A stretch of DNA of 27,357 nucleotides from Escherichia coli. Its GTDB lineage: Bacteria > Pseudomonadota > Gammaproteobacteria > Enterobacterales > Enterobacteriaceae. Below are positions 23,301 to 26,300 of this stretch, one piece after another (the first letter of the stretch is position 1; each line of letters begins with the position of its first letter). Location: the NCBI RefSeq assembly GCF_003334355.1, contig NZ_QOWP01000042.1. One strand, 5' to 3'. Position numbers: made by a program.

Positions 23301-26300
23301 GACCGTTATGCACGGCATGAGCCGCCGCCACACGCGTAAAACGATCGCCCAGACCACCGACCATCCCACCACCAGCAATAATAGCATCCACCACATCGCA
23401 AAATGATTGCGTTAACTGCTGATTTTGCTGATCGGCAAGTGCCTGTTCGCTACTGTTTAACAAGACGTCGCGAATGGCCTGCGCATTATTGATCCCCAGC
23501 CGCACGGTTAGCGGCAACGTTTCTGGTTGCGGAGCCAGCACCACCGCTTCATACCATTTCGCCAGCGTGTCACCGATCCCCGCCAGCAGATATTGTTGCG
23601 GTGCATTGAGGATAATCTCCGGTTCCACAAGCACCATAAAATTGGCGTCGTCGAAAATCTCATAATGCAGCGCCTGTCCGGCATCGTTATACCAGACGGA
23701 GAGCGGTGTCCAGGCTGCGCAGGTGGCGGCGATCGTCGGAGCGGCAACAAATGGCAGACCGAGACGGCGGGCGAGGGCTTTCGCGGTGTCGAGCAGTGCG
23801 CCGCCGCCGACGCCAATCACCACGCTGCGATCGTCACCGGACTCAGCCGCCAGTTGCTGTACATCGCTTTCGCTGCAATGACCACGAAACAAAATATGCT
23901 TTGCCCCTGGAAGTCCAAACGCTGGCGGAAGTTTGGTTTGCGCCGCAGCAATGGCGCGTTTGCCGTAGATCCACACCGCGCGAGAAAGTTGTTCATCAGT
24001 GAAAAAATCGTTCAGGTGATTGAAACTTCCTGGATGTGAAAAGTAGTTAGCCGGGCCGACGACCACGCGGATAGGATTGTGAGGCATGTTGTGTTGTCCT
24101 TATTGTTTTATTTAGACATCTAAACGTCTTGATTGCCAAATACTAGCATCGTGTTATAGTGCCTTCAACACGCAACTTCGTCAGGTACAATAAAAATGAC
24201 AAATAACCCTCTGATTCCACAAAGCAAACTTCCACAACTTGGCACCACTATTTTCACCCAGATGAGCGCGCTGGCGCAGCAACACCAGGCGATTAACCTG
24301 TCGCAAGGCTTTCCTGATTTTGATGGTCCGCGCTATTTACAGGAGCGGCTGGCGCACCACGTTGCACAGGGGGCAAACCAATACGCGCCCATGACCGGCG
24401 TGCAGGCCTTGCGCGAGGCGATTGCTCAGAAAACGGAACGTTTGTATGGCTATCAACCAGATGCCGATAGCGATATCACCGTAACGGCAGGGGCGACGGA
24501 AGCGTTATACGCGGCGATTACCGCACTGGTGCGCAATGGCGATGAAGTGATTTGTTTTGATCCCAGCTATGACAGTTACGCCCCCGCCATCGCGCTTTCT
24601 GGGGGAATAGTGAAGCGTATGGCACTGCAACCACCGCATTTTCGCGTTGACTGGCAGGAATTTGCCGCATTATTAAGCGAGCGCACCAGACTGGTGATCC
24701 TCAACACTCCGCATAACCCCAGTGCAACTGTCTGGCAGCAGGCTGATTTCGCCGCTTTGTGGCAGGCGATCGCCGGGCACGAGATTTTTGTCATTAGCGA
24801 TGAAGTCTACGAGCACATCAACTTTTCACAACAGGGCCATGCCAGTGTGCTGGCGCATCCGCAGCTGCGTGAGCGGGCAGTGGCGGTTTCTTCATTTGGC
24901 AAGACCTATCATATGACCGGCTGGAAAGTGGGTTATTGTGTTGCGCCAGCGCCCATCAGCGCCGAAATTCGCAAGGTACATCAGTATCTGACCTTTTCGG
25001 TGAATACCCCGGCACAGCTGGCGCTTGCTGATATGCTACGTGCAGAACCTGAGCATTATCTTGCGTTACCGGACTTTTATCGCCAGAAGCGCGATATTCT
25101 GGTGAATGCTTTAAATGAAAGCCGGCTGGAGATTTTACCGTGTGAAGGTACATACTTTTTGCTGGTGGATTACAGCGCGGTTTCTACCCTGGATGATGTT
25201 GAGTTTTGCCAGTGGCTGACGCAGGAGCACGGCGTAGCGGCGATTCCGCTGTCGGTGTTTTGCGCCGATCCCTTCCCACATAAACTGATTCGTCTCTGTT
25301 TTGCCAAGAAGGAATCGACGTTGCTGGCAGCAGCTGAACGCCTGCGCCAGCTTTAGCTATTTAACCGTCCAGGCGCGGGAATATTGACGGTCGGCAAACA
25401 ACTCTTGCAGGCCGTTAATTTGCTTCAGGCGCAGCACTTCGTCGCTGTCCATTCCCAGCTCTTTGCCAATTTTATTATCGTCCCATCCCAACTGGCTAAG
25501 TTCACGGACGATTTCCGACATGGCGGTGATTTGATGGCGTCCACGAGCGCGATTATGACGAATAGTCGCGGCGATGCGTTGATTACGCGTACCTTCCAGA
25601 CAGGTCACCGGCAAATAACCTTTTAAGCGTAATTTTAATGATGATGAGCCTTTACCAATTTCATGGCGGTGAAAACCATCCACGATTTCCATGGCATTTT
25701 TATCCGTATGTGTGACCACAATGGGTTGGGTAAAACCATCTATTTCAATGGATTTTTGCAGCAGTTTTTTTTCGGGTGGTGCCACGTTGTTTGGGTTGTA
25801 ATCATTAGGCATAAGTTGGCTGTTTTTAACCCACAGAACGCAATCCACTGGCTCTTCACGAAAGGGGCTAACCTGATGGATCGCCATGCGGATTTCATTA
25901 ATCGCTTTGATGCGATCATCTTCCGGCAAGCTGGCGAGAAATTGCGTTAAATCCTGCGTTAATCGTTGTTGCATAGTATCCCCCATTCCTGACGTTTTCC
26001 TTTTATCCGTTCGTTATAACGCTGATAGTTCTTCGATTTTGTGGGGCTAAATGATAATGCCCGACACCAGTAATCGTTATTGAGTAAAACTTTGCATATC
26101 CGCCGCCAGGAGGGGATATCTTTCGCGCCAATGTCCCCTTGCTGGGTTTGTGGAACCTCGATGCCTTTTTTCTGATACCAGTGCAAATAAATGGCGATTT
26201 TATTGCGGTAATGCTCAGCTGTTTTTTCCGGCATGCTATTGAGCAGCAATAATGCATATTCTTGCCAGTCTAAATGTTCTGGCTTGAGGATTTTCCGATG

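What the first reader, a model, noticed from the sequence alone, without database searches (positions are those of the whole stretch)
24111..24130. Palindromic element in the divergent ybdH–ybdL promoter region
tttagacatctaaa (24111..24124; 6-bp arms TTTAGA/TCTAAA) overlaps agac-N8-gtct (24115..24130) in the 108-bp spacer between divergent ybdH and ybdL. This looks like an operator for a dimeric regulator co-controlling the dehydrogenase and the aminotransferase.
Basis: seen in the sequence. Interest (0 to 1): 0.3.

Follow-up and report, generated by a model that had tools for sequence, protein, structure and literature searches.

The report
Known MetJ operator between hcxA and ybdL
The palindrome is part of a well-documented binding site for the methionine repressor MetJ (two adjacent 8-bp "met boxes") that switches off both flanking E. 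coli genes when methionine is plentiful, so the feature is real but already known.

Summary
The sequence is as described: TTTAGA-CA-TCTAAA lies at 24111..24124. AGAC-N8-GTCT lies at 24114..24129, one base left of the stated coordinates. As bare palindromes both are unremarkable. Read in register, however, 24114..24129 is AGACATCT|AAACGTCT, two tandem met boxes (consensus AGACGTCT). It is the only site in the window that passes the published MetJ weight matrix (21.9 bits). Its two boxes score higher than any box in the metA, metB/J, metC, metE/R and metF operators scanned with the same code. The two boxes are kept upstream of ybdL/mtnE in 77 of 78 distinct enterobacterial sequences. Published work already shows the function. 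A MetJ ChIP-exo peak lies 12 bp away, lacZ fusions show tight MetJ-dependent repression, and a met-box knock-out raised both genes. The regulator is MetJ with S-adenosylmethionine, bound as two cooperating dimers. Verdict: already known, low interest. Only the promoter geometry is my inference: boxes at about -53..-38 of ybdL and +5..+20 of hcxA.

The parts
24114..24121 (.). Met box 1, AGACATCT (7 of 8 to consensus AGACGTCT).
   Evidence: 11.19 of a maximum 12.58 bits with the published MetJ matrix. The columns are 90-100% conserved across 78 orthologous sequences, except 24118, which is G in most.
24122..24129 (.). Met box 2, AAACGTCT (7 of 8 to consensus).
   Evidence: 10.73 bits. The right half CGTCT is 99-100% conserved. 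Positions 1-3 of the left half vary (AAG, AAA or GAA) but stay above the threshold.
24111..24124 (.). It equals box 1 plus TTT on the left and the first three bases of box 2 on the right.
   Evidence: The perfect 6-2-6 form is retained in only 10 of 78 orthologous sequences.
24133..24138 (+). Inferred -35 hexamer TTGCCA of the ybdL (mtnE) promoter. It starts 3 nt after box 2.
   Evidence: Consensus scan gave 10 of 12 matches. TTGCCA is present in 72 of 77 orthologs and TTGCTA in 5. No transcription start site data were available.
24152..24160 (+). Inferred extended -10 TGtTATAGT of the ybdL promoter. The predicted start is near 24167, which puts the boxes at about -53..-38.
   Evidence: TGnTATAnT is found in 68 of 77 orthologs. 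The -10 columns average 98.5% conservation.
24140..24148 (-). Candidate extended -10 TGcTAGTAT of the hcxA (ybdH) promoter, lying inside the spacer of the ybdL promoter. The predicted start is near 24133, which puts the boxes at about +5..+20.
   Evidence: Relaxed scan gave 8 of 12 matches plus an extended TG. A TGnTA...T motif is kept at the homologous place in about 66 of 77 orthologs. This is inferred only.
24163..24168 (-). Candidate -35 TTGAAG of the hcxA promoter, 17-nt spacer.
   Evidence: This is a weak match and is inferred only.
22999..24087 (-). hcxA (ybdH), hydroxycarboxylate dehydrogenase. This is the left-hand regulated gene.
   Evidence: ORF. RefSeq annotation of identical DNA.
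24196..25356 (+). ybdL (mtnE), methionine-oxo-acid transaminase. This is the right-hand regulated gene.
   Evidence: ORF. RefSeq annotation. Augustus and Spicer rename it mtnE.

Best explanation
24114..24129 is the operator of the methionine repressor MetJ in the hcxA(ybdH)-ybdL(mtnE) intergenic region. It consists of two tandem 8-bp met boxes, AGACATCT and AAACGTCT.

**How it works.** When methionine is plentiful, S-adenosylmethionine is plentiful too. One corepressor-loaded MetJ homodimer binds each box, and the two dimers bind cooperatively. The bound complex represses both divergent genes.

**Geometry (inferred).** The boxes end 3 nt upstream of the ybdL -35 hexamer, at about -53..-38. There MetJ would compete with RNA polymerase for the -35 and upstream contacts. 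The boxes lie at about +5..+20 of an interleaved hcxA promoter on the other strand. There MetJ would block polymerase binding or escape.

**What is shown and what is inferred.** Shown by published experiments: MetJ occupancy in vivo, MetJ-dependent repression, and derepression of both genes when the boxes are removed. Shown here: the match to the published matrix, its specificity, and deep conservation. Inferred here: the positions of both promoters and therefore the steric mechanism.
For: **Sequence**
- 14 of 16 match to the doubled consensus, unique in the window, 0.05 expected by chance.
- It is the only site in 27 kb passing the published matrix criteria, at 21.92 bits.

**Calibration.** The same code on 75 kb of MG1655 found only the known operators, the hcxA/ybdL site itself, and nothing else:
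- metJ/metB: 31.2 bits
- metF: 24.9 bits
- metR/metE: 21.1 bits
- metA: 27.1 bits
- metC: 18.9 bits, also two boxes
- hcxA/ybdL: 21.9 bits

**Conservation**
- 78 of 80 ybdL/mtnE loci from Escherichia to Pantoea carry 2-3 boxes at a fixed place upstream. One exception holds only 60 nt of upstream sequence.
- Box columns are 94% conserved, against 56% to the left of the boxes and 63% in the ybdL leader.
- The boxes are kept whether the divergent neighbour is ybdH or, as in Klebsiella, mtnC-mtnD.
- 5293 of 5420 E. coli genomes have the identical 46-mer.
- The most divergent E. coli variants differ only in the ybdL leader.

**Published experiments**
- MetJ ChIP-exo peak MetJ-5 at MG1655 633492, which is window 24102 and 12 bp from box 1. 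It is assigned to ybdL and ybdH. The motif TTTATTTAGACATCTAAACGTCTTGA is listed for both genes (PMC6892915 supplement; text; PMC11701608).
- lacZ fusions gave repression ratios of 0.12 or less for ybdH and mtnE. A knock-out of the met boxes raised both transcripts (PMC3228920, citing Bulyk et al. 2004).
- ybdL and ybdH were the two most strongly urine-induced genes in UPEC, alongside metE, metR and metA (PMC5404293).
- MetJ is encoded in E. coli, and its apo-repressor, repressor and other structures are solved (1cma, 1mj2 and others).
Against: - Nothing here contradicts the identification.
- The original knock-out paper (Bulyk 2004) could not be read, so that result is second-hand.
- The review text gives the repression ratio of 0.12 or less collectively for "E. 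coli, Yersinia or Klebsiella". The exact E. coli values were therefore not seen.
- Neither transcription start site was available. The hcxA promoter match is weak (8 of 12).
- A site upstream of the -35 is not the most obvious place for a purely steric repressor.
- The ChIP-exo peak coordinate is 12 bp to the left of the boxes, not on them.
Confidence: 0.96

Rival explanations
1. The 6-2-6 palindrome TTTAGA-CA-TCTAAA is the operator of some other, unidentified dimeric regulator (helix-turn-helix type) that recognises the inverted repeat as such.
For: The palindrome is perfect and lies in a divergent promoter region. T24111 and T24113, outside the met boxes, are 100% conserved.
Against: - The perfect palindrome is kept in only 10 of 78 orthologous sequences. 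Partner columns are not co-conserved: 24111 is T in 100% but its partner 24124 is A in 33%.
- The conserved unit is the pair of 8-bp boxes.
- The common substitution A24118 to G improves the met-box consensus rather than any outer symmetry.
- MetJ occupancy and met-box knock-out data already explain the regulation.
Confidence: 0.02
2. The palindromes are chance features of A+T-rich intergenic DNA and have no function.
For: 13% of shuffles of the spacer give a 6-bp-arm palindrome. 4-N8-4 repeats occur 147 times in the window.
Against: - The matrix score is reached in 0.5% of window shuffles.
- Conservation in 77 of 78 orthologous sequences is far above that of flanking intergenic DNA.
- Binding and regulation have been published.
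Confidence: 0.01
3. The inverted repeat acts at the RNA level, as a small hairpin in the hcxA 5' leader that affects stability or translation.
For: If hcxA is transcribed from about 24133, the repeat lies in its leader. A 6-bp stem can form at -4.6 kcal/mol.
Against: - The hairpin is weak and not unusual: z = -1.7, and 14 of 200 shuffles fold as well.
- No Rfam family matches.
- The element is equally conserved where hcxA is not the neighbour.
- Substitutions follow the met-box consensus and are not compensatory.
Confidence: 0.01

Closest known systems
MetJ operators of the E. coli met regulon (metA, metBL/metJ, metC, metE/metR, metF, metK, metNIQ, mmuPM)
   Same: - Tandem, ungapped 8-bp repeats of AGACGTCT in a promoter region of a methionine-related gene.
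- Passes the same published matrix and thresholds.
- Its total score (21.9 bits) falls within the range of the canonical operators (18.9-31.2 bits).
- Shared by a divergent gene pair, as at metJ/metB and metR/metE.
   Different: - It has only two boxes, the minimum, like metC.
- Each box is closer to consensus (11.2 and 10.7 bits) than any box in the five canonical operators scanned, where the best was 10.3.
- The flanking genes are remnants of the methionine salvage cluster rather than biosynthesis genes.
The "group 4" met boxes of the enterobacterial methionine salvage cluster (between mtnE and mtnC-mtnD), Augustus and Spicer 2011
   Same: It is the same orthologous element. In Klebsiella (L073) the identical block of boxes, TGA and TTGCCA lies between mtnE and divergent mtnC-mtnD.
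   Different: In Escherichia, Salmonella and Citrobacter the salvage cluster has been deleted. hcxA (ybdH) has therefore become the divergent partner (in one search ybdH is adjacent only in Escherichia, Salmonella, Citrobacter and Pseudocitrobacter). Sequence to the left of 24111 is not conserved.
Classical inverted-repeat operators of helix-turn-helix dimers
   Same: It is a short symmetric DNA site in a promoter region, bound by a homodimeric repressor that needs a small-molecule corepressor.
   Different: MetJ recognises each 8-bp box with one dimer and needs at least two adjacent boxes for repression. From established knowledge of the solved MetJ complexes, it is a ribbon-helix-helix protein. 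The symmetry is therefore tandem and nested rather than a single inverted repeat.

Membership tests
MetJ operator (met boxes) | Two or more immediately adjacent 8-bp repeats resembling AGACGTCT | tested here: met
   AGACATCT|AAACGTCT at 24114..24129, 14 of 16 to the doubled consensus. It is the only hit in the window, with 0.05 expected.
MetJ operator (met boxes) | Passes the published information-weight matrix: each box at least a quarter of the consensus score, and the whole site at least the consensus score (12.58 bits) | tested here: met
   Boxes score 11.19 and 10.73 bits, total 21.92. It is the only passing site in the window. The same code recovers only known operators in 75 kb of MG1655.
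MetJ operator (met boxes) | Lies in the promoter region of a methionine-related gene, typically within about 75 bp of a start codon | tested here: met
   26 nt separate the boxes from the hcxA ATG, and 66 nt separate them from the ybdL ATG. The boxes abut the predicted ybdL -35. ybdL is annotated as a methionine-oxo-acid transaminase.
MetJ operator (met boxes) | Conserved in orthologous regulatory regions of species that have MetJ | tested here: met
   78 of 80 loci pass the matrix. 77 of 78 distinct sequences keep the boxes. Box columns are 94% conserved against 56-63% for the flanks.
MetJ operator (met boxes) | metJ is present in the same organism | tested here: met
   metJ (b3938) is annotated in E. 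coli MG1655. The window is E. coli, its intergenic region is identical to MG1655, and it is present in 5420 of 5426 genomes. metJ itself lies outside the window.
MetJ operator (met boxes) | Occupied by MetJ | not testable with these tools
   Published ChIP-exo peak MetJ-5 at 633492, which is window 24102, assigned to ybdL and ybdH (PMC6892915 Supplementary Table 2).
MetJ operator (met boxes) | MetJ-dependent repression of the adjacent genes, lost when the boxes are removed | not testable with these tools
   Published repression ratio of 0.12 or less for ybdH and mtnE reporters. A knock-out of the boxes raised both genes (PMC3228920, citing Bulyk et al. 2004). Both genes belong to the MetJ i-modulon.

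The most novel reading that the evidence does not exclude
The unusual point left open is the geometry. A minimal two-box operator sits wholly upstream of the ybdL -35 (about -53..-38) yet represses tightly. It also lies in the early transcribed region of an interleaved, oppositely oriented hcxA promoter.

If the predicted start sites are right, repression of ybdL would not be simple occlusion of the core promoter. It would work in one of two ways:
- by blocking upstream contacts of the polymerase alpha subunit;
- by cooperative extension of MetJ onto the degenerate third box TGATTGCC (24130..24137), which overlaps the -35.

The conserved spacer of the ybdL promoter would then reflect a conserved back-to-back promoter pair in which only one polymerase can be bound at a time.
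Probability: 0.12. Interest if true: 0.25.

Novelty: already known. Interest (0 to 1): 0.08.

Why it matters
For annotation, it matters little. The site has been described, bound and knocked out in published work, although RefSeq records carry no feature for it.

Biologically, it ties two poorly understood E. coli genes to methionine supply. These are the HcxA dehydrogenase and the YbdL/MtnE methionine transaminase. They are remnants that once flanked a now-deleted methionine salvage cluster, and they kept the cluster's MetJ switch.

For the scan, it shows that a naive palindrome call can correctly flag a real operator while misreading its architecture.

Tried and rejected
- **Generic palindrome statistics:** neither repeat is significant on its own, so the case rests on the met-box reading.
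- **RNA-level readings:** the hairpin is weak and no Rfam family matches at E up to 1. Rejected.
- **A third met box on either side:** 24106..24113 scores -7.6 bits and 24130..24137 scores -1.6 bits. Both fail the threshold.
- **Alternative ybdL promoters:**
  - TCAACA-15-TACAAT would start transcription at or past the ATG and is not conserved.
  - TTGATT as the -35 gives a 20-nt spacer.
- **Bulyk et al. 2004 (PMC327095):** not held, so the knock-out result is cited through PMC3228920.
- **A misreading I corrected:** I first took "63" in the ChIP-exo table for a peak width. The table header shows it is peak intensity.
- **Co-linearity with MG1655:** a simple co-linear comparison of the window with MG1655 failed because of an indel. 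BLAST shows 98.4% identity.

Full report
**Context.** The window is E. coli chromosome. It runs cstA, ybdD, hcxA (formerly ybdH; 22999..24087, minus strand), ybdL (24196..25356, plus strand), ybdM, ybdN (ORFs). A 208-bp query across the spacer matches 5420 of 5426 complete E. coli genomes and lies under the annotated hcxA and ybdL genes. The window is 98.4% identical to K-12 MG1655 over 8.6 kb. The 108-bp spacer is identical to MG1655 633478..633585, so window coordinate = MG1655 coordinate minus 609390 in this region.

**The observation.**
- TTTAGA-CA-TCTAAA is at 24111..24124, exactly as stated.
- AGAC-N8-GTCT is at 24114..24129, one base to the left of the stated 24115..24130.
- The 108-bp spacer is correct.

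Taken as palindromes these are not remarkable. The window holds 21 perfect 6-bp-arm palindromes with spacers of 0-4 bp and 147 4-N8-4 inverted repeats. 13% of shuffles of this A+T-rich spacer produce a 6-bp-arm palindrome.

**What it is.** Read in register, 24114..24129 is AGACATCT|AAACGTCT. These are two tandem copies of the met box, consensus AGACGTCT, the recognition unit of the methionine repressor MetJ.
- The doubled consensus finds this site alone in the window at up to 3 mismatches. It has 2 mismatches, and 0.05 hits are expected by chance.
- I took the published MetJ information-weight matrix and its acceptance rule from Augustus and Spicer 2011 (PMC3228920, Table 3 and Methods). Applied to the whole window, exactly one site passes, and it is this one.
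- The boxes score 11.19 and 10.73 bits out of a possible 12.58, for a total of 21.92. 0.5% of 200 shuffled windows reach that total.
- The neighbouring 8-mers in register fail: 24106..24113 scores -7.6 and 24130..24137 scores -1.6. This is a minimal two-box operator.

**Calibration.** I ran the same code on 75 kb of MG1655 fetched around canonical met genes. It returned only these sites:

| Site | Boxes | Bits |
|---|---|---|
| metJ/metB | 4 | 31.2 |
| metF | 4 | 24.9 |
| metR/metE | 3 | 21.1 |
| metA | 4 | 27.1 |
| metC | 2 | 18.9 |
| hcxA/ybdL | 2 | 21.9 |

There were no false positives. The hcxA/ybdL site therefore scores within the range of proven operators. Its individual boxes are the best of all those scanned.

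**Conservation.**
- One scan of 100,044 species genomes with YbdL returned 80 loci, from Escherichia to Pantoea, Mixta and Winslowiella.
- 78 of the 80 carry a passing two- or three-box site upstream of the gene, mostly at -83..-68 from the ATG. The exceptions are L021, where only 60 nt upstream are held, and L026 (Enterobacter sp. Bisph1), where the boxes and the -35 are replaced by unrelated sequence.
- In an alignment of 78 distinct upstream sequences, a sharply bounded conserved block runs from 24111 to about 24170.
- Mean column conservation is 94% for the boxes, 98% for the -35 and 98.5% for the -10. It is 56% to the left of the boxes and 63% in the ybdL leader.
- Box 1 is AGACGTCT in 56 sequences, AGACATCT in 10 and GGACGTCT in 7. 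Box 2 is AAGCGTCT in 49, AAACGTCT in 15 and GAACGTCT in 11.
Its outer partner columns are not co-conserved (T24111 100%, A24124 33%). AGAC-N8-GTCT survives in 68 of 78 because it is simply the outer halves of the two boxes.
The second shares its centre with the junction of the two boxes.
- Within E. coli, 5293 of 5420 genomes carry the identical 46-mer 24099..24144.
- The most divergent intergenic variants differ only to the right of 24170.

**Evolutionary setting.** ybdH is the divergent neighbour only in Escherichia, Salmonella, Citrobacter and Pseudocitrobacter. In Klebsiella pneumoniae (L073) the divergent genes are mtnC and mtnD, recognised from their translations. This matches the published account. 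[quoted passage not shown] That brought ybdH and mtnE (the former ybdL) together, so they now share the "group 4" met boxes.

**Published function.**
- Augustus and Spicer report tight MetJ-dependent repression of lacZ fusions, with a repression ratio of 0.12 or less for ybdH and mtnE among others.
- They also report that the Church group (Bulyk et al. 2004) knocked out the met boxes between ybdH and ybdL, and that this raised both transcripts. I could not read that paper directly.
- Sastry et al. 2019 placed ybdL and ybdH in the MetJ i-modulon and found MetJ ChIP-exo sites upstream of all 17 of its genes.
- Their Supplementary Table 2 lists peak MetJ-5 at 633492, intensity 63, assigned to ybdL and ybdH. 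That is window 24102, 12 bp from box 1. Their motif table lists TTTATTTAGACATCTAAACGTCTTGA for both genes.
- The iModulonDB 2.0 paper restates this for hcxA and ybdL.
- In uropathogenic E. coli, ybdL and ybdH were the two most strongly urine-induced genes, together with metE, metR and metA.
- MetJ is encoded in E. coli, and ten PDB entries hold the met repressor.

**Mechanism.**

*Established:*
- Each MetJ homodimer binds one 8-bp box.
- Repression needs two or more adjacent boxes.
- S-adenosylmethionine is the corepressor.

*Inferred here:*
- The only strong sigma-70-like promoter in the spacer is TTGCCA (24133..24138), a 16-nt spacer, then TGtTATAGT (24152..24160). It points at ybdL and is conserved in the orthologs.
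- With a start near 24167, the boxes lie at about -53..-38 and end 3 nt before the -35.
- On the other strand, a weaker candidate reads TTGAAG (24168..24163), a 17-nt spacer, then TGcTAGTAT (24148..24140). It would start hcxA transcription near 24133 and put the boxes at about +5..+20.
- Its extended -10 lies inside the conserved spacer of the ybdL promoter and is kept in about 66 of 77 orthologs. That would explain why the spacer is conserved.
- On this reading, one MetJ tetramer blocks polymerase on the hcxA promoter directly, and it competes with polymerase for the -35 and upstream contacts of the ybdL promoter.
- No transcription start site data were available, so this geometry is the least secure part of the account.

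**Rivals.**
- An unknown regulator that reads the 6-2-6 palindrome is disfavoured by the conservation pattern.
- Chance is excluded by the matrix score and the conservation.
- An RNA hairpin in the hcxA leader is weak (-4.6 kcal/mol, z = -1.7) and has no Rfam match. It also does not fit conservation of the element where hcxA is absent.

**Verdict.** This is the known MetJ operator shared by hcxA and ybdL/mtnE. It is already known and of low interest.

Noticed in passing
L026:2376-2503 (Enterobacter sp. Bisph1): This is the only full-length ybdL/mtnE ortholog of 80 whose upstream region lacks both met boxes and the -35 hexamer. Sequence to the left of the conserved promoter spacer is unrelated. 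The gene may have escaped MetJ control there.
   Followed up: no
window 24139-24154 (minus-strand motif 24148-24140): The spacer of the ybdL promoter is 87% conserved across genera. On the minus strand it reads as an extended -10 (TGnTAGTAT), kept in about 66 of 77 orthologs. This suggests a conserved back-to-back promoter that drives hcxA in E. coli and mtnC-mtnD in Klebsiella.
   Followed up: partly
window 24111 and 24113: Two T residues just outside box 1 are 100% conserved. They fall at positions 6 and 8 of a would-be third box (24106..24113) that otherwise fails the matrix at -7.6 bits. They may be a half-site or a flanking contact.
   Followed up: partly
window 24171-24195; L086, L087, L088: Within-species variation in the intergenic region is confined to the ybdL 5' leader. 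E. coli N61 has an 11-bp insertion after 24170. Strains W13-16 and PEC1013 have small indels. All three keep the boxes and the promoter intact.
   Followed up: yes
window 18611-27177: The window is not K-12. It is 98.4% identical to MG1655 over 8.6 kb, with 133 mismatches and one gap, while the hcxA-ybdL spacer is identical.
   Followed up: partly
window 24099-24144: RefSeq records carry no annotated feature over the operator: "none" under the match in all rows listed. The MG1655 record lists only CDS features here. The site is therefore known in the literature but absent from genome annotation.
   Followed up: yes
L034:2412-2435, L062:2400-2423: Superficieibacter electus and Winslowiella iniecta score a third passing met box upstream of the usual two (24.9 and 22.6 bits). 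The operator length therefore varies between genera.
   Followed up: no
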